From: a virus
Length of the DNA: 64,000 bases
Reading direction: 5' to 3' (one strand)
IMG/VR virus record: IMGVR_UViG_3300036846_000489
Location: 1-64,000 of that record
Shown here: positions 40,566-63,915 of the stretch, in pieces
How the letters are laid out: every line of letters begins with the position of its first letter
Position numbering within the stretch: the first letter of the stretch is position 1
Position numbers and translations under genes: made by a program
Notes under the pieces: model-generated
What the model was told of the DNA's origin: nothing
Seen by the model: the letters and a program-made list of their open reading frames with translations, nothing else
The model's database searches: none

Positions 40566-42088
40566 CCCAACTCTCCCTGCTTCTTGCCGAACGCTGCCGC
40601 CACGATGTCGAACGTCGGCTTGTCTTCCTTGTTCATCACCCTCATGCGTGGATACGCCGCATTCTTCGCCGCCTCGAAACCTTCCGTGTCGGTGATCCAA
40701 TGCAGTTCGGCCATTCTCGCCTCGGCCCATTCCTTGTGGTCGCAGGCAGCGCCGATTGGCAGGATCAACTGACGTAGCCAGTCCGGCTTTGCCATCCCGC
40801 GCTTGGTCATGGCACCGGCAATAACCCTGACCGCCACCTGCCGGTAGAGGATTTCGGCGTCGGCCATGACCGACTTCTGGGCTTCCAGCCAGGACATCAG
40901 ATATTCATCCTCCGGAAAATTCCCGATCAAAGACTTGACCCAGGCGCTCCACACCGGCCTCCCGTTGTTCATCGGCGGCTGCACCGTCTCAAAGGACAGC
41001 GGTGGACTTTCGTCTCCGCTGGTCTCCTTGCGCCACTCGTCCACGTCCTTGAGCAGCGGCGTGCGGGTCTTTCGTGCCGCAACCAGGGCGTCGGCGTTGT
41101 GGTGCAACAGGTTCTCTCTGGCCTCGGCTCCGGTCGCCGCGTTCCAGTATTCCTTGAACTCCCTTACCCAGCCGGCGACATCTGGGTATAGCTCGCCGTC
41201 AGTCTCTCCCTCAGCGTCCCTCACCAAGAAATCGAACCTCTCCGGCGCGGCACTCAGACGCTCGCGCGCTTTCATCAAAGCCTCCCCTATTTCCTTCTGC
41301 TTCCCGGCGTCGAGAGTGTTCACATTATCCCGCACCAGATCGACCAGAGCTTCCAGGTCTTCCGATGTTTTTGCATCAGCGAAGCCGTGGGCCAGCGCGC
41401 CCCACCACTGCGGGTTACGCTTGAGTATGTCTTCGACGCTCTTGGCCCAAACATTTCCCATCGACTTTTCTGATGGTGGCGGCGAGGCCGGCCCACGCTC
41501 CCGATGGGTTCCGTCCGTGTCTTCGCCCTTCACCACGATATTCAGCAGCGCGACGGTGAGATAGCGGATGGCAAAGGTCTGCGCGGCCCCGCCTTTCTGC
41601 TGAATACCCATGTAGGCATCTTTGTCGATTGGCTCCTGTTTCCTGGCGGTGAACGACCATCCGGTATCTTCGTGGATCAGTTCCCCCTCCACGATGATGT
41701 AGTCGGCGGTCTGCTCGATGGGCCGGAAGGTCAATCCGAACCCGTGCTTCGTCATGATCGGTCGAACCACTTCGTCGATGTCTTCCTGGGTGGCAAAGCC
41801 GTATTTTATGGTCCCCCCACGCTTCGTGACGGTATCCACCCTGCCCTTTTTCTCGATCTGCGGAATGTCGTGGTGCATCCGCACGAACGCCTGTTTGGCG
41901 GCAATCTCCCGGTCGCGATCTTTGGTCCGCTCCCACAGGGTGGTCAGCCGCTCAAGCACCTCTATGTTTCCACTGGTGGAAGCTTGCGCCATCATGGTCA
42001 TGATGGATGGCACGGCCTGTTCTACTACCTTCCCGTTCCCGGTGTGCGTGATGTTGATCTGCGCTTCGGATGTGTCTGTCTGGCTCAT
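40562..42088 (-). CDS. ERF-family single-strand annealing protein with long C-terminal extension
   Basis: AFVRMH.DIPQIEK, FAT.EDI..VVRP.M.KHG, QQ.GGAAQTFAIRY, EDTDG. Confidence 0.8.
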   Translation of the reverse strand: MSQTDTSEAQINITHTGNGKVVEQAVPSIMTMMAQASTSGNIEVLERLTTLWERTKDRDREIAAKQAFVRMHHDIPQIEKKGRVDTVTKRGGTIKYGFATQEDIDEVVRPIMTKHGFGLTFRPIEQTADYIIVEGELIHEDTGWSFTARKQEPIDKDAYMGIQQKGGAAQTFAIRYLTVALLNIVVKGEDTDGTHRERGPASPPPSEKSMGNVWAKSVEDILKRNPQWWGALAHGFADAKTSEDLEALVDLVRDNVNTLDAGKQKEIGEALMKARERLSAAPERFDFLVRDAEGETDGELYPDVAGWVREFKEYWNAATGAEARENLLHHNADALVAARKTRTPLLKDVDEWRKETSGDESPPLSFETVQPPMNNGRPVWSAWVKSLIGNFPEDEYLMSWLEAQKSVMADAEILYRQVAVRVIAGAMTKRGMAKPDWLRQLILPIGAACDHKEWAEARMAELHWITDTEGFEAAKNAAYPRMRVMNKEDKPTFDIVAAAFGKKQGELG

Positions 42089-51697: not shown

Positions 51698-51942
51698 GAG
51701 GATTTCCTGTCCAGCTTGATGTCGTGGGTGCGGTGGCCGTATGATCTACCGGTTCTTATGGCATCGACCAGTTCCTCCATCAGTTCAACAAACTCATGAG
51801 GGGGTGTGGTCGAGACCACGCGATTTTTCTTTTCTCCCGCCAGTCGATAGATCAGCAGCCAGTCACCGTCATCGCCTATTGCCTTGGCGAGAAACTGACC
51901 TACGGCATCAGCTATGAATTCATCCTCTTTGTCTTCGGTCAT
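51694..51942 (-). CDS. Cassette gene, hypothetical
   Basis: Start preceded by AAGGACACCAAATG. Confidence 0.65.
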   Translation of the reverse strand: MTEDKEDEFIADAVGQFLAKAIGDDGDWLLIYRLAGEKKNRVVSTTPPHEFVELMEELVDAIRTGRSYGHRTHDIKLDRKSS

Positions 51943-52014
51943 TTGGTGTCCTTTTCCTGTTTCCAGCGAAGTGCTGGTGCAGAGAGCCACGCCCCACGGG
52001 ACGCGCTCCCTGCA

Positions 52015-52266
52015 TCAATGCTTCGTCTCCGCAGCGTCTTTTAAGGCGGTGAGTTTGAGGATTAATTTCACTAGCATCGTCAATAGGCTCGACCGAATTT
52101 CTGCGGTGTCCTTGTCGTCTTCCCCATAATGCCCAGCAACCCATATGGCGGTTAGTTCGGCGAGAACTGCGCCCTGTATGGCTGAGGACTTGCCAGCCAG
52201 GATCGGCTTGATCTGACCGATCAGAGCGATTATTTCCTCTACGTCTTTCTTGGCGAAATCGGTCAT
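52015..52266 (-). CDS. Cassette gene, hypothetical
   Basis: LAGK...IQGAVLAEL.A.WVAGH; stop lies in type B element. Confidence 0.65.
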   Translation of the reverse strand: MTDFAKKDVEEIIALIGQIKPILAGKSSAIQGAVLAELTAIWVAGHYGEDDKDTAEIRSSLLTMLVKLILKLTALKDAAETKH

Positions 52267-53309
52267 CAACGCACCTCGTAGTGGGAACGGTTGGACTTGA
52301 AGCTCTTCCGCTGTTCCTCGGTAGCATTGACCAGTGTGTCCGCGATCCAGATCGACCGACCCGTGGCGTAGTTTCTCGGGTGTCCCATGCGGATGTGGAA
52401 CTGCGGACTTGCGTGGTGCCCGCCCAGACCTTCGCTCCGCTCCCGATGACCGCGTGCCAGAATAGCCGTGACATACGGCTCACTAAGCACCCGGTCGTAG
52501 TGCGGGATCGGCGGCTTCCGGCTTTTCATCCTGGCACGTTGCAATTTCTCCGGTGGCCGAACTGTCTCCCGATCCACCCCGCGCGTGGCGAGGATCATCA
52601 GGCAACAGATAATCGGGTCACCGATATTGCAGCTTGCCGCCTCGTGGGCCGATTGTCCGTTGTTCTGCAAGGCACGGAATTCATCGTCGGCGACGAACCG
52701 CAGAATAGACGGTGCCACTTGGGAAATATGGTCAACGCCAAGTTCCGGTGGCGGCACCATGAACATGCCACGGTCACCGATTACCAGGAGTTGCTGGTAA
52801 CCGAGCGTCAAGGGCTGAAGCTCGCAGACTTCGAAGGTCGTGTCGGAAGGACGATTGACCAGATAGACCGCTATCGCCTTGGTTTCTGGCAACACCACTG
52901 GCTGAGGGCCTGCGCCCTTCCAGATGAGGTTATGATCCCAAGTGTGGTAGCAAATCCACGGGTCGGAAAATGGGAAACCCAAGGCTCCCATATTCCACAT
53001 CTTCCCGCCACGCTTCGCGCATTCCGAGATGACCAAGTTCGGCAAGTGACCGAAGTCGATGACCCTGCCGGCTGTCACCGCATCGCGGCACCGAAGGGAG
53101 ATCAATTCAACCTCCCTCTGTGTCGAGGCGTATTCACGGCTCTCGGGAAGCAACCGCATGTTCGATGACTGGAAACCGGTGACGCGAAAATCGAGCACCG
53201 CGTCCCGCATCTGCGTGACGGTTGGTCTCCACTCCATGTCCAGCGACATAGTTAGCTCCTGCCCGAAGATCACCTGACCTTCGGGAGTTCTCATTAGTCT
53301 CGGTTCCAT
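52266..53309 (-). CDS. Cassette gene with C-terminal HxRxGH motif
   Basis: Conserved start sequence; HASPQFHIRMGHPR. Confidence 0.75.
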   Translation of the reverse strand: MEPRLMRTPEGQVIFGQELTMSLDMEWRPTVTQMRDAVLDFRVTGFQSSNMRLLPESREYASTQREVELISLRCRDAVTAGRVIDFGHLPNLVISECAKRGGKMWNMGALGFPFSDPWICYHTWDHNLIWKGAGPQPVVLPETKAIAVYLVNRPSDTTFEVCELQPLTLGYQQLLVIGDRGMFMVPPPELGVDHISQVAPSILRFVADDEFRALQNNGQSAHEAASCNIGDPIICCLMILATRGVDRETVRPPEKLQRARMKSRKPPIPHYDRVLSEPYVTAILARGHRERSEGLGGHHASPQFHIRMGHPRNYATGRSIWIADTLVNATEEQRKSFKSNRSHYEVR

Positions 53310-53379
53310 TTGGTGTCCTTCTCTGTGTCCCCTGGTCGGGGCGAGGACAGCACCGATGCCGGCGCTGCCTTCGTCCAGA

Positions 53380-53997
53380 TCAGCGAATATCAACCTTTTT
53401 CGCCGCGCCTTGCTCAAGAGCGGCTTTGAGTATCTGTTGGGCGGCATCGCGTTCTTCGAAGGTTGGCTCCCTTTCCGGCAGAACCTCGGCAAAACTTCCC
53501 ATTATGAAACTCTGCGGGTCAGAGGTCTTTTCATCCTTTACCCCGGTGCATTTGCCTTTCGCGTTTCTTACGACTTCGGCTTGTGCCACGGCGGTAAGGC
53601 GTTCACCGGTATCGTCGTTGCGCCATATGATCTGTGCTATGACGACTTCTTGGCGATCTTCCCGTTGGCTCGGCATGACCTCGGGATATTCTGGGTCCGG
53701 TTCTCCTGGCTTGCTGCTCGCAATCCAGGCTTCGCCGATGAAGGCGACGGCGAACCCGTTGTCGGCTATACAGATGAGCCGGGCCATTTCCCGGTGTCCG
53801 CGTTTTTCCTTGTCGTCGTAGTTGTTCATTCCGCCGACACCTATCGGGGTAACTCTATGGGCGGCATGAACCACGAATAGCGGCATAAGGTGTCCTTCTT
53901 TGGTGATACACCGCTTGGCATATTCTAGATCAAGCCGAAGTTGTTTGGCATAATCGAACTTTCCCTTGGCGATGTTTGGTCCGGTTTTTCTCGGCAT
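53380..53997 (-). CDS. Cassette gene, hypothetical
   Basis: Conserved start sequence; EAWI...PSQREDRQEVV; TGA inside element. Confidence 0.75.
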   Translation of the reverse strand: MPRKTGPNIAKGKFDYAKQLRLDLEYAKRCITKEGHLMPLFVVHAAHRVTPIGVGGMNNYDDKEKRGHREMARLICIADNGFAVAFIGEAWIASSKPGEPDPEYPEVMPSQREDRQEVVIAQIIWRNDDTGERLTAVAQAEVVRNAKGKCTGVKDEKTSDPQSFIMGSFAEVLPEREPTFEERDAAQQILKAALEQGAAKKVDIR

Positions 53998-54070
53998 CTG
54001 GTGTCCTTCCTGTTCTCCCCTGGTCGGGGCGGTGACAGCCACGGAATATCCTTGGCTGCCCCCGTCTGGA

Positions 54071-54235
54071 TCAGGGCAAATACCTCTCAGCGACGTTCTC
54101 GCGCTTAATGAACTTCAGTAGGGCTGAATAGAATTCTTCCAGCCGTTGCTCGCCGTCCTGTTGCGACAGCCGTTGTTGCCAATGCTCCAGGAAATCCCAG
54201 GCATTGATCAACGCTCTTTCCCGGTCATAGAACAT
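54071..54235 (-). CDS. Cassette gene, hypothetical
   Basis: TGA inside element. Confidence 0.5.
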   Translation of the reverse strand: MFYDRERALINAWDFLEHWQQRLSQQDGEQRLEEFYSALLKFIKRENVAERYLP

Positions 54236-54458
54236 GAGCGGCCGCCAGCAGTAATCCAGCGACAATTCCGACCACCAGGAACAGGCTGAAGCCGCCCTGT
54301 CCTGGCCGTTCCCGATCCCGCCTTCTCTCGGTGATTTCGATGTTGACCACCACGCGCCGGGGCGGCCCGCCTGAAGGCGGGGGAGGATCGTTGTGGAAGG
54401 AATTGCCGTCCAGTAAGTAGTCGAATGAGCCACGCTTCGGCTCCTTGTTCTTCAGCAT
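54225..54458 (-). CDS. Small membrane-anchored protein
   Basis: C-terminal hydrophobic segment. Confidence 0.5.
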   Translation of the reverse strand: MLKNKEPKRGSFDYLLDGNSFHNDPPPPSGGPPRRVVVNIEITERRRDRERPGQGGFSLFLVVGIVAGLLLAAAHVL

Positions 54459-54685
54459 ATGCCCAACTCCTTCTTGGTCCGATCAACCAGATTTTCCCAC
54501 TCCTTGCAGGCATCTTCCAGCCAGTTGATTGACTTGGCCGATCCCTGAAATTCGTAGGTATCGCGATCAAAGTGAAGACCGTTGAGCACCTCTCTTGCCG
54601 CCGCTCTCATCGAACAGGCAACATCATACATCAATTGCTTGTTCGCTTTCATAGCGACGGCCTGATCTTCAGTTCTTTTCGGCAT
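54452..54685 (-). CDS. Cassette gene, hypothetical
   Basis: Conserved start sequence. Confidence 0.6.
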   Translation of the reverse strand: MPKRTEDQAVAMKANKQLMYDVACSMRAAAREVLNGLHFDRDTYEFQGSAKSINWLEDACKEWENLVDRTKKELGIC

Positions 54686-54790
54686 GGGTTTGGTGTCCTT
54701 CTCTATTCCCCGACCGACTGGTCGAGGCGACAACAGCACCGCGCAAGGCGGGCTGTTCCCGTCAGGATCAGCACGACAGTCTGGCGACCG

Positions 54791-55402
54791 TCAGTGGTAT
54801 CTCCGGTGGTTGCCGTCGGCGGACCAATTTACTTCGTGCCAGTCCGCGACCGGCCCAGGCACGGTCAGAACCGGCACGGCCAATGCCCCGATGATCCCAG
54901 CGGACGCCCTGCCCTCTACACCGGCCAGGACGATCAGCGTGCCACGAGTAAGGAGCGTGGCCTTTTGGTTCGGGAACAGAACCGGCTCCTTGGTATTATC
55001 GAGGCGATCAAGGCTGCTTTCGAATTCGGCAATTCCCTGTTCCCCCAGGCGGGTTGCCAGGGTGACAAGGGCGCCGTGGCTGTCAGCTTGAAGAATGAAA
55101 GACGCCATGGTTGACCACAGTGCTGCCCGGTCTTCCAGGTCGGTATTATTTATCTCTGGGACCGGGTCAGACCACCGAAGCATGTCGCAGATCATTCCCC
55201 GGTTGGGGGAGGCAAATACCACATGCCGCCCATAGCAGGCCGGGAGTGCTAGTTTCCCAGCTTCCTCTGAAGCGATGGCATCGACAACCTCCTGCAAGGT
55301 CGGAATACAGCGACGCAGTATTCGCTTCGTGCTCGGCTTTTGCGCGCGGCCTTTCACCACATCCTCTAAGGTCATGGTGGCGACGTGTTCTCCTAGTGTC
55401 AT
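54791..55402 (-). CDS. Cassette gene, hypothetical
   Basis: Conserved start sequence. Confidence 0.65.
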   Translation of the reverse strand: MTLGEHVATMTLEDVVKGRAQKPSTKRILRRCIPTLQEVVDAIASEEAGKLALPACYGRHVVFASPNRGMICDMLRWSDPVPEINNTDLEDRAALWSTMASFILQADSHGALVTLATRLGEQGIAEFESSLDRLDNTKEPVLFPNQKATLLTRGTLIVLAGVEGRASAGIIGALAVPVLTVPGPVADWHEVNWSADGNHRRYH

Positions 55403-55479
55403 GGGTTGGTGTCCTTCTCCGTCCTCGACTTCTGGTCGAGGCGGCGACAGCGCGGCTTCCCGTGCTGTCTCCGTCCAGA

Positions 55480-56637
55480 TCAGGGTCGTCTCCTGATGAC
55501 GTCATAATCGTCGTGAACAACGAAGCCGCGTGAGGCGTCGCCGCGTTCATGCTCCGGTCGCCACCAGCGTTTGCCGCCACAGTCCGAACAGACCCAATTA
55601 TCCGGATCGTCCGGCCCAGCGTCCGGCCACGGCAGCCATTTCGGTGGACCGTGGTTCGGTTCGAAGTTGTGGACGCACCCGGCGATCCTGGAATAATCGC
55701 GGGCTTCCTTGTTGTGGCAGTAGTGACCACGAACTTCGTGCCGGCGACGCGGCACAGCGTCACCCGCCGGGGTGCCGATCAGCCTTAAGGTCGGCACCGG
55801 ATCGATCTCTATGGTCACCGTGGTATGTGCCATGTAGGCCCGGAACTTGCCGCTGATGAAGCCAGGGGCATTCGGCAGAGAGTTCCGGTAGCTGGTCAGC
55901 GACGGCCGGTTGAGCATCAGCAGGATCGCGATGATCGTCCGAAAGTCGCCAATCGTGCCACGTGCCATGGACGCCATGCCGCCGTCAGCGGTCCATTTAT
56001 GGTAGGATGGATGGGCCGGATTGAGCGGCGTCTGTTCCATGACGTTGAACTCTCGCAGCACGCGCCGTTCGTCGTTGGTCAGGTTGTCCCAGGTTGATCC
56101 CCACATAAGCATGTCGAGGCTCATCCGAGAGCACCCGCACAGACGGGCGAATTCCAACTGATCGTCTATCGGCCATTCGGTTCTTAGTCGATACTGCATT
56201 CCGGTCACCTGCGGGTCAGTGACCGGGTTGGCCACCGTGCCGCCGCAGATGGTATTGATCCGATTATGGTCGATCAGATACCCGACCGTGTGATCGGCAC
56301 TGTCAAGTTCGCCATACCAGCCGGTATTTTCATACCGTCCTGGATCAGCGTCGCGTAGCACCTTCCAGTAAATCCACGAAGGCCACTCTATCCAGGTGAC
56401 CTCGAAAGGTGGTCTGGCGAAGCCGTGTTCCCGCACCAGAAGTGAAGGAATATCACGCACGACCTGGGCAATACGCTCCGCGGCCCGCTCGTCAAAGACG
56501 AACTTATGGGCGGCACGCATGGAGCGTTGAAGCATGTCCATGGTTTTCGGATGGACGAACCGCTCCTTGGCCGAAAACTTATGAGCCAAAAAGCGGTCAG
56601 CCAGTATTGGCCCCCGCTTGGTAGGTGTTTTGGCCAT
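55480..56637 (-). CDS. Cassette gene with HEVRGHY and Cys-rich C-terminus
   Basis: Start-sequence variant; RRRHEVRGHY, CSDCGG, HERGDAS. Confidence 0.75.
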   Translation of the reverse strand: MAKTPTKRGPILADRFLAHKFSAKERFVHPKTMDMLQRSMRAAHKFVFDERAAERIAQVVRDIPSLLVREHGFARPPFEVTWIEWPSWIYWKVLRDADPGRYENTGWYGELDSADHTVGYLIDHNRINTICGGTVANPVTDPQVTGMQYRLRTEWPIDDQLEFARLCGCSRMSLDMLMWGSTWDNLTNDERRVLREFNVMEQTPLNPAHPSYHKWTADGGMASMARGTIGDFRTIIAILLMLNRPSLTSYRNSLPNAPGFISGKFRAYMAHTTVTIEIDPVPTLRLIGTPAGDAVPRRRHEVRGHYCHNKEARDYSRIAGCVHNFEPNHGPPKWLPWPDAGPDDPDNWVCSDCGGKRWWRPEHERGDASRGFVVHDDYDVIRRRP

Positions 56638-56712
56638 GTTGTGTCCTTCTGTTCTCCCCGAGCATGTCTGATCGAGGCGGAAACAGCCATGCTGCTTCCG
56701 TCCGGATCAGGC

Positions 56713-56738
56713 AAAGAAAAGGGGAGCCGAAGCTCCCC
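56713..56738 (-). terminator. Intrinsic terminator (UUCG loop)
   Basis: On - strand: GGGGAGC-TTCG-GCTCCCC-TTTTCTTT. Confidence 0.8.
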
Positions 56739-56769
56739 ACAAAGTCTGGGTCGGATATTTTCTGCCGGT

Positions 56770-57408
56770 CTACGCCGACCGACGCCGCAACAGGGTCAGG
56801 CCGATCAGGCCCATCCCGAGGATCACAAGCGAGGCAGGCTCCGGCACGGCCGTCGCCGAAGCACTGATGTCACCCGCAAAGCTGGCATTGAAGGCGCCAA
56901 TTGTGCTGCCGTCCAAGGCAAGGGTGGGCAGCAGATTGGTGAACGCCAGATTGAACGAGCTTGGGGGCACCAACTCGTTGGCCGGAATGACGTTGCTGGC
57001 CAACGTGAGGCTCTCCGGGGGGTTGTTGACATTGACTGTCAGACCCGGCCCACCATTTGCCCCAAAGGCGGCATCGGTGAACGTGCCAGAGAGGAAGTTA
57101 CCCGTGCATCCGGCAGCACTTGAGATACAGAAGCTTCCCGAGTAATGCTGGATGATGTTGCCCGCTACCGTGATTGCCGCATCGATAGAATGCGCGGAGA
57201 GGGTCATCATGGCGCCAGGAATGGCACCGAGAATACCGCCGCCCAGCAAAGCTAGCTGGTTGGTGTAACTGATATTCGTCACGGTGCCATTGTCGGTCGC
57301 TACCACGGTATTCGTCGTGGCCTCCTGAGCGAAAGTCGTAAGCAAGGCGGCTTCCGCTACTGTCGGCAAGGCCACGGCGATGGTGGAGGCAAGCAAAAGT
57401 GCCTTCAT
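56770..57408 (-). CDS. PEP-CTERM sorted secreted/surface protein
   Basis: Signal peptide MKALLLASTIAVALPTVAEA; C-terminal VPEPASLVILGMGLIGLTLLRRR. Confidence 0.9.
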   Translation of the reverse strand: MKALLLASTIAVALPTVAEAALLTTFAQEATTNTVVATDNGTVTNISYTNQLALLGGGILGAIPGAMMTLSAHSIDAAITVAGNIIQHYSGSFCISSAAGCTGNFLSGTFTDAAFGANGGPGLTVNVNNPPESLTLASNVIPANELVPPSSFNLAFTNLLPTLALDGSTIGAFNASFAGDISASATAVPEPASLVILGMGLIGLTLLRRRSA

Positions 57409-57518
57409 CTGGTTTCCTTTCGGGTTGGTGTGAACACTCAGTCTCCCCGGCTTTGCTGGCCGAGGCCGGAACGCCCGCCACAGTTTCCTGTGGGGACGCT
57501 CCGGTCAAGGTCAGATTT

Positions 57519-57728
57519 CTACCGTCTCCGGTGGCTGGCATCTATAGGTTCGATGTCGGTCTCAACCTGACGGGGATCGCGGCCCTGTTGTATCCGCGAT
57601 ATCCTGGCGGGCAGGATGATATCCCGATTGCAGTCGTCGCAGCACCGGCCATGGTTGATCGGCTCCGCGTTGTTCCCGAACCGGGTGTATGGCCGCCCGC
57701 AGATCGTGCAGGCTCCGTTCTCATCCAT
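57519..57728 (-). CDS. Small zinc-binding protein
   Basis: CTICG...GNNAEP...GRCCDDCN. Confidence 0.7.
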   Translation of the reverse strand: MDENGACTICGRPYTRFGNNAEPINHGRCCDDCNRDIILPARISRIQQGRDPRQVETDIEPIDASHRRR

Positions 57729-58224
57729 CCTTGTTCTCCTCTTCCTTGCGCGGCATTCCGGAAAGAAGCTGACCGTAGGTGTGGAGCACCTCGGTCACCG
57801 GCTTGCCGTCTCGGAAGAACGTGATGGTTCCCGCCGCCTCTGAGGCGCGAGAGTTGCCCCAGGCGTCGAACTCGGCACGATCCATCCAAATGATGTTCCG
57901 ACGCAGCCATTCGACGGTGACCACCGGATCGACCGTGTAGTAGCCTCCCGGCACGTCTTCGTCTTCGACCTCTTCGCCCACAACCACACCGTTGCCGGCC
58001 ATTGGCTGGTCGGTGCGGAATGCGCAGAAGAAAAAGTGCATGGTTGGTTTCAGCAAGCCTTCCTCGTCCACGAACATCACATCTCCAGACGGGAACCGAA
58101 AGGCCGCTTCGATCCAGCCACCGATATAGTCACCGACGGTAGGAAGCTCGCCTTCGGCACTTTGTATGCGATATTCGACCTCACGGATTTCCCGCTTCAC
58201 GGCATCAATGAGAATTGCCTTCAT
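57721..58224 (-). CDS. DUF3846-like protein
   Basis: MKAILID, IGGWIE, FVDEEGLL, AGNGVVVG. Confidence 0.65.
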   Translation of the reverse strand: MKAILIDAVKREIREVEYRIQSAEGELPTVGDYIGGWIEAAFRFPSGDVMFVDEEGLLKPTMHFFFCAFRTDQPMAGNGVVVGEEVEDEDVPGGYYTVDPVVTVEWLRRNIIWMDRAEFDAWGNSRASEAAGTITFFRDGKPVTEVLHTYGQLLSGMPRKEEENKDG

Positions 58225-58308
58225 GGGTATTTGGTGTCCTTCCATTCAGTTTCCCCAGGCTGGCTGAGGCGAGGACAGCCACCGGCCTGAGCCGGCGCTG
58301 CCTTCGTC

Positions 58309-58491
58309 TTAGTCAGGGTCTATCGGCTCGTCGTGATCGTAGTTCGGATCGGTCAGAACCTCTGGCCGGAACGCGGCCAGCTTCTCCTTTTCGCATTTCC
58401 CGCACATGTATCCGAGAGGAATTCCCCTCGCATCCAGTCCGACCCACGGCCACTCGCCGCTGCCGCACGGGCATTCAGTCAGCATCGCCAT
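58309..58491 (-). CDS. Small zinc-binding protein
   Basis: CPCGSG...DARGI....C.KC...FRPEVL. Confidence 0.65.
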   Translation of the reverse strand: MAMLTECPCGSGEWPWVGLDARGIPLGYMCGKCEKEKLAAFRPEVLTDPNYDHDEPIDPD

Positions 58492-58778
58492 CATGGTTCT
58501 CCGTCGTGGCCAACGGCTTTCTGGTCCGCCACGCCATCGACGGTGCGATGGCGTCCGGCGTATTCCCACTGGACCTGATGGAAGCGTTCGATATTCGCGA
58601 TGTCACGAATATCCAACTTGAACCCCAGAGCCAAGTAGATTAGTTCCAAATCGCCTTGGTTGAGCCGGTCGAGGTTGGGCAAGGTGGCATGAGGGATGCC
58701 ACAGTGCTCAATGATCCACTCACGGATGACGCGGACCAGTTCGTATTTGTCTGGCCGCATCTTGGGAGGAAGCGACAT
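58491..58778 (-). CDS. Hypothetical protein
   Basis: TGATG-coupled to upstream minigene; SD GGGAGG. Confidence 0.55.
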   Translation of the reverse strand: MSLPPKMRPDKYELVRVIREWIIEHCGIPHATLPNLDRLNQGDLELIYLALGFKLDIRDIANIERFHQVQWEYAGRHRTVDGVADQKAVGHDGEP

Positions 58779-58894
58779 CACGCTGCCTCCCGAGGGTCTT
58801 CAGTATTTATCGGCATTTGGTGTCCTTTCCAAAGTCCTCGGCGAACTGGCCGAGGCGGCGGTAGCCACGACAAGCGCAGCTACCCCCGTCCAGG

Positions 58895-59113
58895 TCAGAT
58901 CAACTTGATCTCGACAGAAGTGACCGTGTAGGGGCCGTTGCAGCCAAGGCCGGGAGAGCCATACACGGCCTTCCCGTGGGTCAGTTCCCAGAAGCTTTTC
59001 TGCCGAGCCTGAAGGTAGACATCATCAAGCTCACCTTCGCAGATCGACTTTGTCTCCCAGGTCTGGCCCTTGGCAGCGGTGCCACGAAGGGTGCAGTTGT
59101 AGAGGCGGATCAT
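58895..59113 (-). CDS. Cassette gene, hypothetical
   Basis: LTHGKAVYGSPGLGC.GPY; TGA inside element. Confidence 0.6.
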   Translation of the reverse strand: MIRLYNCTLRGTAAKGQTWETKSICEGELDDVYLQARQKSFWELTHGKAVYGSPGLGCNGPYTVTSVEIKLI

Positions 59114-59445
59114 GCCGGCCTCCTTATGAACTCTCGGCCCGGCCTGGACCGAATACCATGGATCAGATCGTCATGTTCTGTAGCGAACCGAACCATGGCA
59201 CGGCGAAGGTCCAGCATCACGTCGCAGATTTTCCGCAGGCGATCCACCTCTTTCTGATCCATCGGAAACTCCGACAACTGCGCCATGGCATCACAGAGGT
59301 TCGATACCATCGCGTTCATCCGGCCCAGGATCAGGTCTTTCTGATCGGTCTCTTTCTGGTATTTCGCCATCAACAAAGCCATGCTGGAACGCGCTTCTCG
59401 CGCTTCAGCCTTCGCCTGTTGCAGCGGTGTAGGGTTTCGAGGCAT
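59110..59445 (-). CDS. Cassette gene, helical
   Basis: Conserved start sequence. Confidence 0.6.
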   Translation of the reverse strand: MPRNPTPLQQAKAEAREARSSMALLMAKYQKETDQKDLILGRMNAMVSNLCDAMAQLSEFPMDQKEVDRLRKICDVMLDLRRAMVRFATEHDDLIHGIRSRPGREFIRRPA

Positions 59446-59520
59446 TTGGTGTCCTTCCGTTCTCCAGCGCAAACGCTGGTGCAAAGAGCCACGGGCCATT
59501 GCTGACCCGCGCTCCTTGCA

Positions 59521-59991
59521 TCAAGGTTTGTTTGCTTCTCGCGCTATCCGCTCGTCTTCCTTCGTCGCATAATGAGGAAGTTCGCGCAGAGAAAGGCGGG
59601 GCCTTCCAGGCTTTTTTGGCCCAGGTGTTCTTTCCCGTTTCTTTTCCGGTGCTCGCTTTCCCAGCCTATGGGCTTTGGTAGGCGCAAAAAGTGTGAGTTT
59701 GCCGTAGACAAACCGTCCTTCGGTATCGAATTGACGAATGACTTCTGGCCAGTGGTTGACGTATCTCAGCCAGTGTTTTGCCCCTTCTTCTAGCACATAA
59801 GCTCGGTATTTATAGACTATCGCTGCCCGAGCGCCTTCGCGCATTAACGAACGAGCCCAAGGGCAGTCGCACGGATCGTTGGGGCAGGCGCCCTTGATAT
59901 CAACAAGAAGAGCCACGACAGGTCTATTCTTCTTCGCGTCCACTATGGGTAGTCCTAGAAAGGCTGGATGGTTTCTCATCATGGATGCCAT
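59521..59991 (-). CDS. Cassette gene, hypothetical
   Basis: Conserved start sequence; DPCDCPWARSL. Confidence 0.7.
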   Translation of the reverse strand: MASMMRNHPAFLGLPIVDAKKNRPVVALLVDIKGACPNDPCDCPWARSLMREGARAAIVYKYRAYVLEEGAKHWLRYVNHWPEVIRQFDTEGRFVYGKLTLFAPTKAHRLGKRAPEKKRERTPGPKKPGRPRLSLRELPHYATKEDERIAREANKP

Positions 59992-60084
59992 TTGGTGTCC
60001 TTCTCTGTTTCCTGGTCCGGGTCTGGCCCAGGCGGAAACAGAAACGGCCCCCGAAAGGGCCGCTCTGCTACCGTCACGGTCAGA

Positions 60085-60351
60085 TCATCCCCGCCGCGTG
60101 ATGGTCACGTCGTATCCCTTGTCCACGATTTTCTGGATCAGAATTTCCAGGTCTTCGTGATCGTCGGGGAAAAGCATGTGCAACAGCTTTTTCACCTTGG
60201 CGGGACGCGGCTGGGCGTTGCCGTTCTCGATCTGCGACAGATAGCCATTGGACAATCCGGCACGTTCCGCGAGAGCGGTCTGAGACAAACCGCGTTCCTC
60301 ACGGGCTTGCCTGATCTTTTCGCCCAGGTCGGGGCTGTCGAAATTCACCAT
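60085..60351 (-). CDS. XRE-family HTH regulator
   Basis: KIRQAREERGLSQTALAERAGLSNGYLSQIENG. Confidence 0.88.
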   Translation of the reverse strand: MVNFDSPDLGEKIRQAREERGLSQTALAERAGLSNGYLSQIENGNAQPRPAKVKKLLHMLFPDDHEDLEILIQKIVDKGYDVTITRRG

Positions 60352-60353
60352 GG

Positions 60354-60569
60354 TCAACCTCCTGTCTTCCACCATCGGCCGTGATCGCCCAGAGTGTATT
60401 TCTGGCCGACCCCGACGCCGAGGCCAAAGCCGAACAGAAGATGGCATCTCAGGCACATCATTGCCCACGGCCCCCGACGGGTTGCTCCATCAACAAAGTC
60501 GGTGTTGAGGGAGCCGCGGCAGATGGCACAGGCAACAGGCTTGCTGCCTTGCCAGTAAAGCTTGGTCAT
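60354..60569 (-). CDS. Small zinc-binding protein
   Basis: CAIC...FVDGAT..GPWAMMC..C...G.GLG.G.GQKY. Confidence 0.7.
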   Translation of the reverse strand: MTKLYWQGSKPVACAICRGSLNTDFVDGATRRGPWAMMCLRCHLLFGFGLGVGVGQKYTLGDHGRWWKTGG

Positions 60570-60654
60570 TTGGTGTCCTTTCCGTTTCCCCCGATCCGCT
60601 GATCGAGGCGGTGGCAGCACCGCACAGCGGCGGGCTGCCCCCGTCCGGATCAGA

Positions 60655-61209
60655 TCATTCCATCCAGAAACAATTATACCGTTCGCGTTTCGCCATCCGG
60701 CACTTCAGGTTGTTCGCCTCGGCGATCCCTCGCAGATAGGCGAACCACTTCGCACTGGTCTGACCCGTGTGATCGCTGAGTTCCTTTCTCGAAACCCCCT
60801 GCGGCCGGCGAGATTGCTCGACTGCCCAATCGACGAACCCGGCGGGCAGTTTGGAGAGGCTGGGACCGCCCTTGATCTCCGGCCCCCGGTATTCCCCAGG
60901 CTCGACTTCTTCCGGCTTGGGAGAAGCCTCAGCGGCCTTCCTGGCAGCCTTCTTCGGCGCCGGCGCTTTCTTCGCGGTCGGTGCCGCCGCTTTCTTCTTC
61001 TTCGCAGCCTCGATACGCACGACGTTGCTTCCTTCATCGTCAGGAAGCGGACGATCAATCAGGCACCACTTGCCTTCAGCATTCTGTCCCGGCATGTGGT
61101 CGGCACCGAGCAGACGCAGACCGGAGCGCTTGAACTCCTTCTCCATGTCTTCCTTGCTGTCCCATGTCCGAGTTTGTGCCTCGACAATGGTCATGCGTGT
61201 AGCGGCCAT
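60655..61209 (-). CDS. K/A-rich protein with DUF3489-like winged helix
   Basis: AKKAPAPKKAARKA; RRPQGVSRKELSDHTG. Confidence 0.6.
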   Translation of the reverse strand: MAATRMTIVEAQTRTWDSKEDMEKEFKRSGLRLLGADHMPGQNAEGKWCLIDRPLPDDEGSNVVRIEAAKKKKAAAPTAKKAPAPKKAARKAAEASPKPEEVEPGEYRGPEIKGGPSLSKLPAGFVDWAVEQSRRPQGVSRKELSDHTGQTSAKWFAYLRGIAEANNLKCRMAKRERYNCFWME

Positions 61210-61319
61210 GAATGTGTCCTTCTGTCCGTGGTGGAAATTCCCGGGACTGGCCCAGGCGGAAAAAGCGTGGGGCAGAGGTTTCCCCCTGCCCCGAGTTGTT
61301 TCCGTCACGGTCAGTCAGA

Positions 61320-61739
61320 TCAGGCGCGCTTGCGCACTGCGATCTTGGTCAGCTTGAACACCGGCTTGCCGCCAGAGACGCTGTAGGCGAGGCCGTTGCT
61401 CGTGGCCAACCGTTCTACCCATGGCCGCCACGCCACTTGGTTCTGTCCGGCTCGGCGCGCCAGCATGGCCCGCGTTACCCCTCCCGGACTGGACGCCATC
61501 TCCAATACCATCTTCGCGAAATCCTTCGGCAGGATGGTATCGTTGACCGGCGGCATCGGCGTTCTGGCTTTTCTCGGCGCTCTGGCTTTTCTTTCTGCCC
61601 GAGGCTTCCGAGCCGACTTCTTCGCTTCCCGGCCCGGTTTCGGGCCTTGACGCCCCCCGGCCACTACCTTGAACTTCTCTGGCACCGCAGCCATGCGGGC
61701 TGAGGCGCTGTTCTTTTTCTTGATTACGGTCTTAGCCAT
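61320..61739 (-). CDS. Basic protein with DUF3489-like winged helix
   Basis: K/R-rich N-half; MASSPGGVTRAMLARRAG. Confidence 0.6.
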   Translation of the reverse strand: MAKTVIKKKNSASARMAAVPEKFKVVAGGRQGPKPGREAKKSARKPRAERKARAPRKARTPMPPVNDTILPKDFAKMVLEMASSPGGVTRAMLARRAGQNQVAWRPWVERLATSNGLAYSVSGGKPVFKLTKIAVRKRA

Positions 61740-61850
61740 TGTCTTAACCCTCTTGTTCGAAGACGCACGCCCGCAGTCGGGACGTGCCCCCGGCATACTG
61801 GCCGAGGCCGCAGCACCACCACGGTTTCCCGTGGGGTGCTCCGGTCCGGG

Positions 61851-62036
61851 TCAGGTATCGAAGTCGCGGCGATGCGCCGCTAGGATTTCCGCGATTTCCT
61901 CTGATGGGATCGGCTCGGCCCGATAGAGGATATCGATGTCCGGCACTTTGCTGATGATCATCCGGTAGCCGGGTGGCATTTTCTCCAGCAACATGAGAAT
62001 GGTTGCTGCCACGTCGGCATTTTCATCGTTTACCAT
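61851..62036 (-). CDS. Cassette gene, hypothetical
   Basis: SD AGGAG; TGA inside element. Confidence 0.55.
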   Translation of the reverse strand: MVNDENADVAATILMLLEKMPPGYRMIISKVPDIDILYRAEPIPSEEIAEILAAHRRDFDT

Positions 62037-62328
62037 CCGTTTCTCCTTGCCCTAAAAAGCGAAAGCTGAGACCGTGATTGCCGTCGTTCTCCCCGACAAA
62101 GGATATCGCTGGATGCCCCTCGATCAACAGAAGGTCTTCGTAGAAGCTGTCCCATTCGTCGATCACGGTATCCATCTCTTCCCCTTCTTTCGGGTAGTTC
62201 TCGGCTATGTAGGCGTCGAGCGACATCTGCCGAGCCAATAATACGGCGTTGCCTTCTTCCTGGGCATTCACCCGGATCGCTTGCATGTAGCCTTCGTCTC
62301 CTATCAGGATGACGGTGTAGGGTTGCAT
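62023..62328 (-). CDS. Cassette gene, acidic
   Basis: Conserved start sequence. Confidence 0.6.
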   Translation of the reverse strand: MQPYTVILIGDEGYMQAIRVNAQEEGNAVLLARQMSLDAYIAENYPKEGEEMDTVIDEWDSFYEDLLLIEGHPAISFVGENDGNHGLSFRFLGQGETDGKR

Positions 62329-62400
62329 TTGGTGTCCTTTCTCCCGAACCATTCTGGCCCAGGGAGAAACGTCGTCCGCAGACGACGCTTCCCTCACAGG

Positions 62401-62652
62401 TCAGGCTTCTTGGGGTTCGCCAAACAATTCCTTCCACATCTCGACCGTGGAGAACTGTTCGACCAGCTTCTTCGCCTCGTCCTCTGGCTGCGGCTCTATG
62501 CTCATGGTTTCGTAGCTCTTGACGAAGAGGTAGAACCGGGAGCTTGCGGTGCGATACAGGATCGCATGATCCCAGTGGAGATACTGGCCGAGGTCGCAGA
62601 TCGGCTTTCCCTTATCCGTATCGTAGAGAACGCCGTCGATTATTTTCTGCAT
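62401..62652 (-). CDS. Cassette gene, small protein
   Basis: KIIDGVLYDTD...LYRT....FYL...EA...FGEPQEA. Confidence 0.7.
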   Translation of the reverse strand: MQKIIDGVLYDTDKGKPICDLGQYLHWDHAILYRTASSRFYLFVKSYETMSIEPQPEDEAKKLVEQFSTVEMWKELFGEPQEA

Positions 62653-62735
62653 TTGGTGTCCGTCCTTCTGTCTCCCGTGCCAACCACTGGCCCAGGCGAG
62701 GACGGCCACGGTTCCCCGCGCCGCCTTCGTCTTGG

Positions 62736-63032
62736 TCAGATAAGTGGTTTCCATCCACCCCATGGGGGAAGCTCTTCGCCCCACCGTTTCTTCGGCTTCA
62801 CCCTCTTGCTGCGTGCGGTCACCGCCCGATCATGGGCGGCTCCCAACGCGGCATCCGACATTGGTTTCTCTTTCGCCCGAGACCAGCTATCGCTTGGCCC
62901 CACACGAAGCCGAACCTCTGGCACGCTTCCATAGGGCAGACCCTTCGCCTTGGATTTCCGGTTGGGATTTCCCTGACGAAGGAACTTCCTGCCCTTCGGA
63001 TACGACCAGTTAATCCGAGACTTTTTCTTCAC
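62736..63032 (-). CDS. Basic hypothetical protein
   Basis: GTG start; TGA inside first element. Confidence 0.45.
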   Translation of the reverse strand: MKKKSRINWSYPKGRKFLRQGNPNRKSKAKGLPYGSVPEVRLRVGPSDSWSRAKEKPMSDAALGAAHDRAVTARSKRVKPKKRWGEELPPWGGWKPLI

Positions 63033-63198: not shown

Positions 63199-63199
63199 G

Positions 63200-63880
63200 T
63201 GTCTGTCCTTCCGTTCACACTCGTGCTCTGTCTTGGGGGCTTGCAACCCTCGGCAACCTTTCGGCTGACGGCGACATTCCGACCGACCCCCGTAGGGGCC
63301 GGGCGGTGAACAGAGGTTAAGGACACACCAAATTTTCGTATGAATACAACCGAGACTGTTTCGCCCTTCCCGCCCGCAAGATCGCCTCACGGCTACCCTT
63401 ACGACTTGTTCTCAGGCTAGGCTGTATCCACACGCCCGTATCCATTCACAATGCTGGCTTACACGCTGACGCCAGCAGACATCCGACAACCCTGCTCACG
63501 CCCACCGGGCGTTTTTCTAGGTGTCGGTGTATCTACTGTGTCAGCCAGAGCGGGGCGCTCTTGGCAGGCTTACAAGGATCGCGCTCTCCCGGTATTCCCA
63601 ACGCGCATTGATCCAGGGGGGTTTATGTTGCTGCCCATTTCGCCTTGCCAGTCTGATACCCTTTGCGACCTCTGTTGAGGTCGGGCCTTCTGGGTGGCAC
63701 TATGGCGTGGCCGTGGTCCGCTCCTTGACACACTGTCGGCCAGCGTGTCACCTCGGACACCGTCCACTTGCACCTCGGAAGTTCTTTCCTCGCACGCTTG
63801 CAGCGCCCCATCTTCACCTGTCAAAGAACCCGCCGGGGTCGAAGGCGGGGCGGCCCGCCGCCCCTTTTCCTCCCGGCCAT
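63200..63880 (-). ncRNA. Long structured 5' leader / candidate ncRNA
   Basis: No SD-supported ORF; long imperfect stems (e.g. 63466-63546, 63301-63366); lies between promoter and first gene. Confidence 0.55.
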
Positions 63881-63886
63881 TTTAAG

Positions 63887-63915
63887 ATCATAGCAAATTT
63901 TACCAGGTTTGTCAA
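63887..63915 (-). promoter_or_regulatory. Near-consensus sigma70 promoter with extended -10
   Basis: On - strand: TTGACA-17 nt-TATGAT, with TG one base upstream of the -10 (TGcTATGAT). Confidence 0.85.

What the first reader, a model, noticed from the sequence alone, without database searches (positions are those of the whole stretch)
51974..62739. Integron-like gene-cassette array in a phage early region: 16 covarying palindromic elements separate co-oriented small genes
Seen: 14 elements of 43-68 bp read on + as CTGRYY-NN-GGC[palindromic variable core]GTC-NN-RRTCAG, plus 2 variants. Arms covary within each copy (position 5 C-G vs T-A; position 6 T-A only at 58260; positions 12-13). Two G.T pairs and a usually unpaired 2x2 internal loop are conserved, while the inner hairpin sequence is unrelated between copies. 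The TCA at the element end is the TGA stop of the upstream gene in 10 of 16 cases (52015, 53380, 54071, 55480, 58895, 59521, 61851, 62401, 62736 exactly; 58309 has its stop inside the arm), and the stop lies close by in most others. Spacing is 333-1358 bp, mostly 550-800. Known: integron attC sites have this logic (conserved ends, variable hairpin, stop codon in the site, structure rather than sequence recognised), and T4-type PeSL cassettes mediate module shuffling. These elements lack the attC RYYYAAC/GTTRRRY consensus, and no IntI is in the window. Inference: an undescribed cassette capture/shuffling system, or a repeated RNA-processing/regulatory element (e.g. RNase III sites as in the T7 early region).
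Basis: partly seen in the sequence, partly recalled or inferred. Interest (0 to 1): 0.93.

Follow-up and report, generated by a model that had tools for sequence, protein, structure and literature searches.

The report
Repeated RNA linkers between phage genes
A 75-kb soil phage separates its early genes with about 16 copies of a folded linker (stop codon, long hairpin, small hairpin, standard ribosome site), and related phages gain, lose and reorder genes at these linkers; no integron-type enzyme is present.

Summary
There are 13 strict copies plus 3 variants, all in one orientation and all within 51.9-62.8 kb. A looser form of the motif gives 12 matches against 0.01 expected by chance.

The genes lie on the minus strand. 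In mRNA sense each unit reads: upstream stop codon inside segment A (CUGAYCNNGAC), a variable hairpin, segment B (GCCUCGRYCAG), segment C, then a standard start site (GAACAGAAGGACACCAAAUG). B can pair with A, closing a long hairpin with an internal loop. B can also pair with C, forming a small hairpin. Both pairings covary. Wobble pairs in the inner stem and in B-C show that the mRNA strand folds.

A 75-kb relative is collinear everywhere except here, where co-oriented genes are swapped, gained or lost between linkers. Strain variants in two soil metagenomes lack single genes with breakpoints in the linkers. Neither genome encodes a tyrosine recombinase, a serine recombinase or a Y1 transposase. 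An ERF annealing protein is present.

Best reading: standard intercistronic RNA modules of one long early operon, probably T7-like processing or stability sites. Because they are repeated, they serve as crossover points for cassette shuffling, as T4 PeSLs do. This is a new variant of known kinds, and its biochemical function is untested.

The parts
53307..53383 (-). Type-1 linker between g21 (stop 53380) and g22 (start 53309): A, hairpin, B, C (CCCC/GGGG), standard start block
   Evidence: (68.5 bits)
53995..54074 (-). Type-1 linker upstream of g21; the stop of the upstream ORF (54071) lies in A
54683..54771 (-). Type-1 linker between g18 and g19; 8-bp B-C hairpin
55400..55483 (-). Type-1 linker between g17 (stop 55480 in A) and g18
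56635..56738 (-). Intrinsic terminator of the PEP-CTERM gene (56738-56721), followed directly by the shortest type-1 linker (56710-56668) and the start of g17. The same terminator plus short-core linker follows the PEP-CTERM gene in the relative, where a different gene lies downstream
57406..57514 (-). Type-1 linker between g15 and the PEP-CTERM gene g16
58222..58316 (-). Type-1 linker with the CU/AG arm variant (A CUGACU, B AGCCAG, C CUGGGG); UAA stop at 58309 inside A
58814..58898 (-). Type-1 linker between g11 (stop 58895 in A) and a 12-codon leader ORF that overlaps the start of g12
59443..59526 (-). Type-2 linker (UGA, long hairpin UGCAAGGAGC..GCUCUUUGCA, adjacent small hairpin CCAGCG..CGCUGG, standard start block) between g9 and g10
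59989..60083 (-). Type-1 linker between the HTH gene g8 and g9
60567..60653 (-). Type-1 linker between g6 and g7; 8-bp B-C hairpin
61207..61314 (-). Type-1 linker between g5 and g6; its variable core is itself a terminator-like hairpin followed by a U run
61737..61854 (-). Type-1 linker between g4 (stop 61851 in A) and g5; long non-standard leader
62326..62404 (-). Variant linker (A-like CUGACCUGUGA, hairpin, CCCUGGGCCAG) between g2 (stop 62401) and g3
   Evidence: (34.3 bits)
62650..62739 (-). Type-1 linker between g1 (stop 62736 in A) and g2
51940..52020 (-). Type-2 linker between g23 (stop 52015) and g24
63887..63915 (-). The only strong sigma-70-type promoter of the region (TTGACA, 17 nt, TG, TATGAT); it drives the minus-strand early operon
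63300..63336 (-). Segment of the roughly 680-nt leader that is complementary to the standard start block (anti-start sequence); conserved in the relative
40562..42088 (-). ERF-family single-strand annealing protein, a candidate for recombination between short repeats
   Evidence: PF04404, E 2.6e-14

Best explanation
The elements are standard intercistronic RNA modules of one long early operon. The operon is transcribed leftwards from a single strong promoter at 63.9 kb.

In the mRNA each module starts at, or just after, the stop codon of the upstream gene. Segment A (CUGAYCNNGAC) pairs with segment B (GCCUCGRYCAG). This gives a 6-bp lower stem, a 2x2 internal loop and a G-C / A.C / C-G step. 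Above these sits a covarying 9-bp stem with a variable tip. The result is a long hairpin of 20 or more base pairs, built like the RNase III sites of the T7 early region. B can instead pair with segment C to form a 5-9-bp hairpin. About 10 nt downstream lies the standard start block (GAACAGAAGGACACCAAAUG). The two folds have nearly equal predicted energy.

Inferred mechanism: a double-strand-specific endonuclease, most likely host RNase III, cuts in or near the internal loop. The upstream message then ends in a protective hairpin. The freed 3' half of B refolds with C into a 5'-terminal hairpin that protects the downstream message. Each gene therefore becomes a self-contained unit with standard expression. 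A ribosome stopping inside A could flip the same switch without any cut.

Shown by comparison: because about 16-20 near-identical modules lie in one orientation, recombination between them deletes, inserts and reorders whole gene-plus-linker units. The likely agents are short-homology recombination by the phage ERF protein or by host functions.
For: Structure: 84.7% of cells are paired against 74.9% in shuffles (0 of 500 reach it). Eleven pairs carry changes on both sides, and sliding the partner columns drops pairing to 46% or less (per-position table).

Sense strand: inner-stem position 16 is G.U in 8 of 20 copies and A.C in 1. The B-C hairpin is more stable in sense in 18 of 20 copies. B position 4 pairs as U.G in 10 copies, U-A in 7 and C-G in 3 (read by eye from the folds). 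Each B folds better with its own C (-11.7 kcal/mol) than with the C of another copy (-8.2). Type-2 modules and two variants fold better in sense by 6-12 kcal/mol in 5 of 6 cases.

A-B pairing: positions 5, 6 and 11 covary. A variant in the relative (G001 36289) has entirely different but perfectly complementary outer arms, GAAACU and AGUUUC, around the same GAC..GCC core.

Balanced alternatives: the A-B-closed and A-free folds differ by -6 to +7 kcal/mol across copies.

T7-like geometry: the T7 intergenic hairpins between genes 0.4/0.5 and 1.2/1.3, folded here, show a lower stem, an internal loop and an upper stem. Between 0.4 and 0.5 the stop codon lies in the lower stem, and a Shine-Dalgarno site follows both.

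One operon: there is a single strong promoter and no promoter-like site inside the elements.

Shuffling: the relative G001 is collinear at 66-80% nucleotide identity, except in the array. There g16 and g17 are swapped, g14 and g15 are swapped, and more than 10 genes are unique to one phage. All stay co-oriented and are separated by modules. In strain contigs, g9 plus its linker is absent (59462->60019 and 59416->59989). g2 plus its linker is absent (62342->62712). g19 is absent (54458->54715). g23 is replaced (52024->52263). The breakpoints lie in the start blocks or hairpin bases. An ERF protein is present.
Against: No RNA data exist. No cleavage, RNA end or in-vivo structure has been observed. 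Cleavage by RNase III is an inference from shape alone.

Taken as a single A..B hairpin, the element is on average 4 kcal/mol more stable on the antisense strand, because of the two A.C positions. Over the whole module the two strands come out about equal.

The number of independent compensatory events in the outer arms is small, about 2-3 subfamilies plus one variant. One copy has a C.A mismatch at position 6.

Type-2 modules have only about 14 bp in the long hairpin and no competing pairing. A single mechanism for all types is therefore not assured.

The host is unknown. Only one close relative could be fetched, so the shuffling evidence rests on two genomes plus Logan contigs. One variant has a depth of only 2.6.
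Confidence: 0.5

Rival explanations
1. The module is a ribosome-sensed translational coupling switch with no cleavage. A ribosome terminating at the UGA inside A melts the A-B pairing (or a pairing of A with the start block). B then pairs with C, and this changes access to the downstream start site. Each gene's translation would then depend on translation of the gene before it.
For: The stop codon lies inside A in 6 of 13 type-1 copies and within a few nucleotides in most others. The alternative folds are balanced. In many minimum-energy folds the stop region pairs with the leader and Shine-Dalgarno site, closing a three-way junction. Some pairs fit strikingly well, for example 61314 CUGACCGUG with CACGGACAG at -15.2 kcal/mol.
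Against: Pairing of the stop region with its own start block is only weakly better than with other copies' start blocks (-8.65 against -8.06 kcal/mol, permutation p = 0.086; z = -2.1 against shuffles). The predicted accessibility of the start block is the same with the native or a shuffled upstream sequence (0.566 against 0.569). The element after the PEP-CTERM terminator has no stop codon nearby.
Confidence: 0.22
2. This is an integron-like dedicated cassette system. The elements would be folded single-stranded DNA recombination sites (+ strand) recognised by structure, and an unrecognised recombinase would capture and reorder cassettes.
For: The layout matches an integron array: co-oriented promoterless genes behind one promoter, a conserved-ends and variable-core palindrome at the 3' end of each gene, and the stop codon in the site. 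Cassette-level gain, loss and permutation are observed. The A..B hairpin alone is more stable on the + strand. One contig joint runs backwards (60591->60023), as a circle or a tandem copy would.
Against: Six-frame searches of both complete genomes find no Phage_integrase, Resolvase or Y1_Tnp match, while the control genomes are positive. There is no RYYYAAC/GTTRRRY consensus. The inner stem, the B-C hairpin and the type-2 modules carry sense-RNA wobble pairs that would be C.A mismatches on the + strand. Breakpoints fall in the start block in some variants and in the hairpin in others. Several unrelated linker families coexist in the same arrays.
Confidence: 0.08
3. The hairpins are transcription attenuators or terminators. 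They would be read through by an antiterminated polymerase (boxA-like leader) and would set the timing of early genes.
For: The operon contains a true intrinsic terminator (56738-56721) and a terminator-like core in the linker at 61247-61314, so read-through is needed.
Against: Fourteen of the 16 elements have no U run after either hairpin. The three-way covariation and the embedded stop codon have no role in termination.
Confidence: 0.07
4. The elements are DNA-level sites. Either they are inverted repeats bound by a phage repressor or regulator (like the stoperators or ESAS of mycobacteriophages), or they are small selfish MITE-like elements that have spread through the intergenic spaces.
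For: The elements are imperfect 11-bp inverted repeats with a variable spacer, oriented with transcription and next to start sites, as ESAS are (PMC3203893). An HTH protein is encoded in the array.
Against: The spacer varies from 21 to 46 nt, which fits poorly with a protein dimer binding duplex DNA. Compensatory changes extend through the 9-bp inner stem and the B-C hairpin, which a duplex-binding protein would not select. No transposase is present. Placement from stop codon to start block is exact, and no copies lie elsewhere in the genome.
Confidence: 0.06

Closest known systems
PeSL (promoter-early stem-loop) mobile regulatory cassettes of T4-type phages (Arbiol et al. 2010, PMC2839356; Comeau et al. 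2014, PMC4122927)
   Same: Both are short conserved regulatory repeats between small, mostly orphan early genes in a plastic region. In both, insertions, deletions and replacements between close relatives are bounded by the repeats and attributed to recombination between them. Mini-circles are a possible by-product.
   Different: PeSLs combine a strong sigma-70-like promoter with a terminator stem-loop. Here the repeats contain no promoter-like site and most hairpins lack a U run. The conserved parts are instead a stop-codon-bearing hairpin base, a competing small hairpin and a standard ribosome site. The phage is unrelated to T4: 75 kb, from soil, with a DUF2213 prohead protease, a Phage_portal_3 portal and a Toprim/DnaB-type primase-helicase.
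Start-associated sequences (SAS) and extended SAS (ESAS) of Cluster K mycobacteriophages (Pope et al. 2011, PMC3203893)
   Same: Both have a conserved asymmetric block containing the ribosome site just upstream of the start codons of a subset of non-structural genes. [quoted passage not shown] All copies share one orientation, and the function is unknown.
   Different: The sequences differ: SAS is GGGATAGGAGCCC, with 17-bp repeats and a 4-13-bp spacer. The authors found little support for an mRNA hairpin. Here the arms and inner stems show compensatory changes and enclose a real hairpin of 21-46 nt. The stop codon of the upstream gene is part of the element, and a second, competing hairpin exists.
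RNase III processing sites of the T7 early region (Dunn and Studier 1983; cited from my own knowledge, geometry folded)
   Same: Both are a repeated family of intercistronic hairpins with a lower stem, an internal loop and an upper stem. They lie between the stop codon and the next ribosome site, and the stop codon can sit in the lower stem. They occur in one long host-transcribed early operon.
   Different: There is no sequence similarity, and cleavage is not shown here. Here an invariant A.C step and a competing B-C hairpin are added, and the copies are about three times as numerous.
Integron attC sites
   Same: Both are imperfect palindromes with conserved ends, an unpaired central part and a variable tip, placed at the 3' end of each co-oriented promoterless gene. 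The genes behave as cassettes.
   Different: There is no IntI or any other recognisable site-specific recombinase and no R-box consensus. The strand signals point to RNA. Crossovers are not at one fixed point.

Membership tests
Integron (IntI + attC array) | An IntI-type tyrosine recombinase encoded next to the array | tested here: not met
   A six-frame PF00589 search of both complete genomes gave 0 candidates, while 14 of 14 control genomes were positive. Resolvase and Y1_Tnp searches also gave no match.
Integron (IntI + attC array) | attC ends with the RYYYAAC ... GTTRRRY consensus | tested here: not met
   The ends are CTGRYY ... RRTCAG on the + strand in all copies.
Integron (IntI + attC array) | The site is active as a folded single DNA strand (bottom strand) with extrahelical bases | tested here: inconclusive
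   The A..B hairpin alone favours the + strand by about 4 kcal/mol. The inner stem, the B-C hairpin and type 2 carry sense-RNA G.U pairs. DNA folding in vivo cannot be tested with these tools.
Integron (IntI + attC array) | Cassettes gained or lost exactly at the sites, at one fixed crossover point | tested here: not met
   Gain, loss and permutation occur at the modules. The breakpoints, however, lie in the start block (59462/60019, 62342) or in the hairpin or B region (54715, 62712), not at one position.
PeSL cassettes of T4-type phages | A strong sigma-70-like early promoter inside each repeat | tested here: not met
   The promoter scan finds one strong site at 63915-63887 and none within the elements.
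PeSL cassettes of T4-type phages | A stem-loop that acts as a transcription terminator | tested here: not met
   Only the hairpin after the PEP-CTERM gene and the core of the linker at 61247-61314 are followed by a U run.
PeSL cassettes of T4-type phages | Indels and replacements between close relatives bounded by the repeats | tested here: met
   Own genome against G001 and strain variants.
SAS/ESAS of Cluster K mycobacteriophages | A conserved asymmetric block with the ribosome site a few nucleotides before the start codons of a subset of non-structural genes | tested here: met
   GGACACCAAATG occurs 8 times exactly and 2 times with one mismatch, on the minus strand only. Sixteen start blocks are listed.
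SAS/ESAS of Cluster K mycobacteriophages | The 13-bp sequence GGGATAGGAGCCC and the 17-bp inverted repeats of that cluster | tested here: not met
   The sequences differ. The similarity is one of design only.
T7-type RNase III processing sites | An intercistronic hairpin with two helical segments separated by an internal loop, about two helical turns long | tested here: met
   The stack is a 6-bp lower stem, a 2x2 loop, 12 bp (with the A.C step) and an apical stem. T7 intergenic hairpins were folded for comparison.
T7-type RNase III processing sites | Specific cleavage by RNase III | not testable with these tools
   No RNA run holds the sequence. The phage encodes no RNase III of its own, so the host enzyme would be required.
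Any Rfam family | A score at or above the family's gathering threshold | tested here: not met
   There are 0 matches at gathering thresholds over the window. At E<=1 over 50300-64000 there are only two sub-threshold matches: a weak twister-P1 hit in the operon leader and a mir-1001 hit (23.7 bits, E 0.96) on the + strand at 61244-61318, which is chance.

The most novel reading that the evidence does not exclude
The array is a phage-borne cassette platform with a dedicated exchange mechanism. The folded elements would be recognised, as single-stranded DNA or through their RNA, by an unrecognised recombinase among the orphan early genes. Genes would then be captured, excised as circles and reinserted in register behind standard ribosome sites. 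This would be a functional analogue of integrons that arose independently in a virus.
Probability: 0.07. Interest if true: 0.9.

Novelty: new variant of a known kind. Interest (0 to 1): 0.62.

Why it matters
If the reading holds, this uncultivated soil phage builds its accessory early region from plug-and-play units: standard ribosome site, gene, stop codon and a two-state RNA linker. It would show, outside the T4 group and with different regulatory content, that repeated regulatory linkers are the seams along which phage accessory genes are exchanged. The linker itself has three mutually covarying segments and an embedded stop codon. It is a compact natural candidate for an RNA processing or coupling switch and could be tested in vitro. 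Together with the complementary segment in the operon leader, it suggests that a whole set of shuffled genes is held under common post-transcriptional control.

Tried and rejected
1. Megablast of the region against 50,697 phage records gave no match.

2. Exact scans for the start block GAAGGACACCAAATG in viral contigs and in bacterial genomes gave only single, scattered chance hits.

Every listed locus had a single match, so the pattern was too permissive and the scans gave no relatives.

The closer g17 homologues (80% and 69% identity) could therefore not be fetched.

5. Twenty-three of the loci holding more distant g17 homologues (55% identity or less) were searched with the covariance model, and none contains the element. 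Three that were inspected show no comparable array.

6. No RNA holder is listed for this sequence, so expression and RNA ends could not be examined.

7. The idea that A supplies stop codons in all three frames fails: all three frames are closed in only 1 of 20 copies.

8. The idea that the hairpins keep the start block accessible fails: unpaired probability is 0.566 with the native upstream sequence and 0.569 with a shuffled one (p = 0.42).

9. Pairing between the stop region and the start block is weak (permutation p = 0.086).

10. A sub-threshold twister-P1 hit in the leader (32 bits against a gathering score of 67) is not reproduced in the relative and is treated as chance.

11. The phage encodes no RNase III of its own.

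Full report
**What the window is.** The window is the first 64 kb of a 75,088-bp IMG/VR virus record with a 123-bp terminal repeat, judged complete. It comes from a soil metagenome. Pfam hits identify a tailed phage:
- DUF2213 prohead protease, tail lysozyme, Toprim/DnaB primase-helicase and ERF annealing protein
- large terminase and portal

All genes between about 50.6 and 63.2 kb lie on the minus strand. They sit behind the only strong sigma-70-type promoter of the region, TTGACA-17-TGnTATGAT at 63915-63887, and a leader of about 680 nt. Most of the roughly 25 genes are orphans. The exceptions are an HTH protein, a DUF3846 protein and a PEP-CTERM protein.

**Check of the observation.**
- A looser sense-strand version gives 12 matches against 0.01 expected.
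- With the variant at 62345-62404 and two copies of a second sequence type (51974-52020, 59474-59526), the count of 16 is right.
- The stop-codon claim is confirmed by the ORF ends.
- No Rfam family reaches its threshold.

**Anatomy in the transcribed sense.** Each intergenic space reads, in order:
1. the upstream stop codon, usually the UGA of segment A = CUGAYCNNGAC
2. a hairpin whose lower 9 bp are conserved (GRRRRCAGC / GCUGYYYYC) and whose tip is free to vary
3. segment B = GCCUCGRYCAG
4. a 3-10-nt loop
5. segment C (RYCGRGG)
6. about 10 nt further on, a standard start block GAACAGAAGGACACCAAAUG

The second type has the same plan with other sequences: UGA, a long hairpin, an adjacent small hairpin CCAGC..GCUGG, and the same start block.

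**Covariation.** I pooled 20 type-1 copies, 13 from this genome and 7 from the relative.
- The A-B plus inner-stem structure is paired in 84.7% of cells, against 74.9% in shuffles (0 of 500 reach it) and 46% or less when the partners are slid.
- Eleven of the 18 pairs show changes on both sides.
- Position 5 is C-G in 11 copies and U-A in 9. Position 6 is C-G in 17, U-A in 2 and C.A in 1. Position 10 is A.C in all 20. Position 4 is A.C in 16 and A-U in 4.

B also pairs with C.
- The hairpin is 4-9 bp long.
- Each B folds better with its own C (-11.7 kcal/mol) than with the C of a copy with a different B core (-8.2).
- The pair at B position 4 is U.G in 10 copies, U-A in 7 and C-G in 3. I read these counts by eye from the folds.

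A, B and C thus covary three ways, for example CU / AG / CU at 58316. A variant in the relative has completely different but perfectly complementary outer arms (GAAACU / AGUUUC) around the same core. This is the best single argument that A-B pairing is selected.

The two folds, A-B closed or A free with B-C formed, differ by -6 to +7 kcal/mol across copies. They are balanced alternatives.

**Which strand folds.** As a bare A..B hairpin, the antisense strand is about 4 kcal/mol more stable. Three observations point the other way:
- The inner stem tolerates G.U in the sense reading (8 of 20 at position 16) and almost never A.C.
- The B-C hairpin is better in sense in 18 of 20 copies.
- Type-2 modules and two variants are better in sense by 6-12 kcal/mol in 5 of 6 cases.

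The A.C at position 10 never varies. It therefore looks like a required feature rather than a tolerated wobble. The base opposite it, C2 of B, is needed for B-C pairing. An A on the other side keeps A-B from outcompeting B-C. That last step is inference. I conclude that the mRNA is the folding strand, with confidence of about 0.75-0.8.

**Relatives and shuffling.** Protein-guided scans found one close relative, IMGVR_UViG_3300045044_000009 (75,005 bp). Its g17 protein is 72% identical and its primase 64%.
- The two genomes are collinear at 66-80% nucleotide identity, except inside the array.
- In the array, g16 (PEP-CTERM) and g17 are swapped, and g14 (DUF3846) and g15 are swapped.
- The HTH gene sits elsewhere, although this match is weak.
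- More than ten genes are unique to one phage.
- All genes stay co-oriented and are separated by modules.
- The PEP-CTERM gene carries its terminator and its short-core linker with it, while the gene downstream differs. The unit is therefore a gene plus the linker after it.
- The relative has seven type-1 modules, one variant, two type-2 modules and further linker families of the same plan.

Logan contigs from the source sample and from a second soil study show strain variants:
- g9 plus its linker is absent in two forms: 59462->60019, and 59416->59989 with local depth 1.13.
- g2 plus its linker is absent (62342->62712, with a hybrid linker in between).
- g19 is absent (54458->54715, depth only 2.6).
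- g23 is replaced by 235 other letters (52024->52263).

The breakpoints lie in the start block or in the hairpin and B region, not at one nucleotide.

**Mechanism of shuffling.** Six-frame searches of both complete genomes find no tyrosine recombinase, serine recombinase or Y1 transposase, while the control genomes are positive. An ERF single-strand annealing protein is encoded. Together with the scattered breakpoints, this fits recombination between short repeated homologies. PeSL cassettes of T4-type phages are described the same way (PMC2839356, PMC4122927). A dedicated integron-like system cannot be excluded, because most early genes are orphans. I put it at 0.07-0.08.

**What the modules do.** This part is inferred. 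The long fold has a lower stem, an internal loop, an upper stem and the stop codon in the base, with a ribosome site downstream. This is the plan of the T7 early RNase III sites. I folded the T7 intergenic regions for comparison. That these regions hold RNase III sites is from my own knowledge of Dunn and Studier 1983.

A cut on the B side of the loop would leave the upstream message with a 3' hairpin. It would also free the rest of B to pair with C at the new 5' end. That would account for all three conserved pairings and for the balance between them.

The main rival is a switch flipped by the terminating ribosome. Support for it is weak: p = 0.086 for pairing between the stop region and the start block, and no effect on predicted start-site accessibility. 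Terminator, operator and MITE readings fit less well (see the rival explanations).

**Standard start block.** This was also noted by other first readers. Following their lead, I found that leader segment 63336-63300 is complementary to all 16 start blocks: -23.4 kcal/mol against -11.5 +/- 0.65 for shuffles. It is conserved in the relative, where the z-score is -14. Common antisense control of the cassettes is a further testable idea.

**Comparison with known systems and verdict.** In evolutionary role the array matches PeSLs, but it lacks their promoter and terminator. In layout it matches the SAS/ESAS repeats of Cluster K mycobacteriophages, whose function is unknown and for which no hairpin covariation was found (PMC3203893). 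In shape it matches the T7 RNase III sites. It is not an integron.

I rate it a new variant of known kinds. The anatomy and the shuffling are shown. The biochemical function is inferred. Interest is 0.62.

Noticed in passing
window 63300-63336 (-); G001 32799-32826: A segment of the early-operon leader (AAAAUUUGGUGUGUCCUUAACCUCUGUUCACC) is the near-complement of the standard start block. Its predicted duplexes with 16 start sites average -23.4 kcal/mol, against -11.5 for shuffles. In cis it folds onto the first gene's start site. It is conserved in the relative.
   Followed up: partly
window 50459-50538: In the minus sense this is a copy of the start block (GGAAGGACACCAC) without a start codon, set in a bulge of a hairpin downstream of the last called minus-strand ORF (stop at 50656). 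Read on the + strand it presents the anti-start sequence. A strain variant has a terminator-like hairpin directly next to it (loose end at 50486).
   Followed up: partly
window 56770-57408 (-), terminator 56721-56738: The phage encodes a secreted protein with a PEP-CTERM sorting signal (Pfam E 5e-6). Its gene has its own intrinsic terminator inside the operon. The gene and terminator are conserved in the relative (47% identity) but at a different place in the array.
   Followed up: partly
window 58779-58816 (-): The standard start block at 58814 opens only a 12-codon ORF (MPINTEDPREAA) whose stop overlaps the start of g12. It may be the remnant of a lost cassette or a coupling leader peptide. 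Strain X2 differs here (joint 58733->58812).
   Followed up: no
window 53884-53905 (-): A second standard start block lies inside g21, in frame (ATG at 53886). It could give a shorter isoform.
   Followed up: no
window 60023-60591: One contig of the source sample joins 60591 back to 60023 with 12 other letters between. This places the g8-side linker in front of g7. It could be a circle or tandem-copy junction of the g7-g8 cassette, or another gene order in a co-occurring strain.
   Followed up: no
window 63220-63283 (-): A sub-threshold match to the twister-P1 ribozyme (32 bits, gathering score 67) lies between the anti-start segment and the first gene. It was not found at the same place in the relative, so it is probably chance.
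   Followed up: yes
window 55480-56637 (-): g17 (385 aa, no Pfam hit) has 107 homologues in the 5.8-billion-protein set. Many are on contigs of 67-88 kb. It has invariant Cys/His positions near the C-terminus (C321, H323, C350, C353), and one fragment is labelled rubredoxin by its source. It is a marker gene of this wider phage group.
   Followed up: partly
G001 33172-34330 (L075 13172-14330): The relative has a third linker family (CCCCGNCG..CGGGGAUUUCGUGUGCUC, a second hairpin, then AUUGAACAAAGGACC) in three consecutive intergenic spaces. It also has other two-hairpin linkers. The plan is conserved while the sequences differ.
   Followed up: partly
window 61247-61314 (-): The variable core of this linker is a 10-bp GC hairpin followed by a U run. 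This puts a terminator-like signal inside a linker.
   Followed up: no
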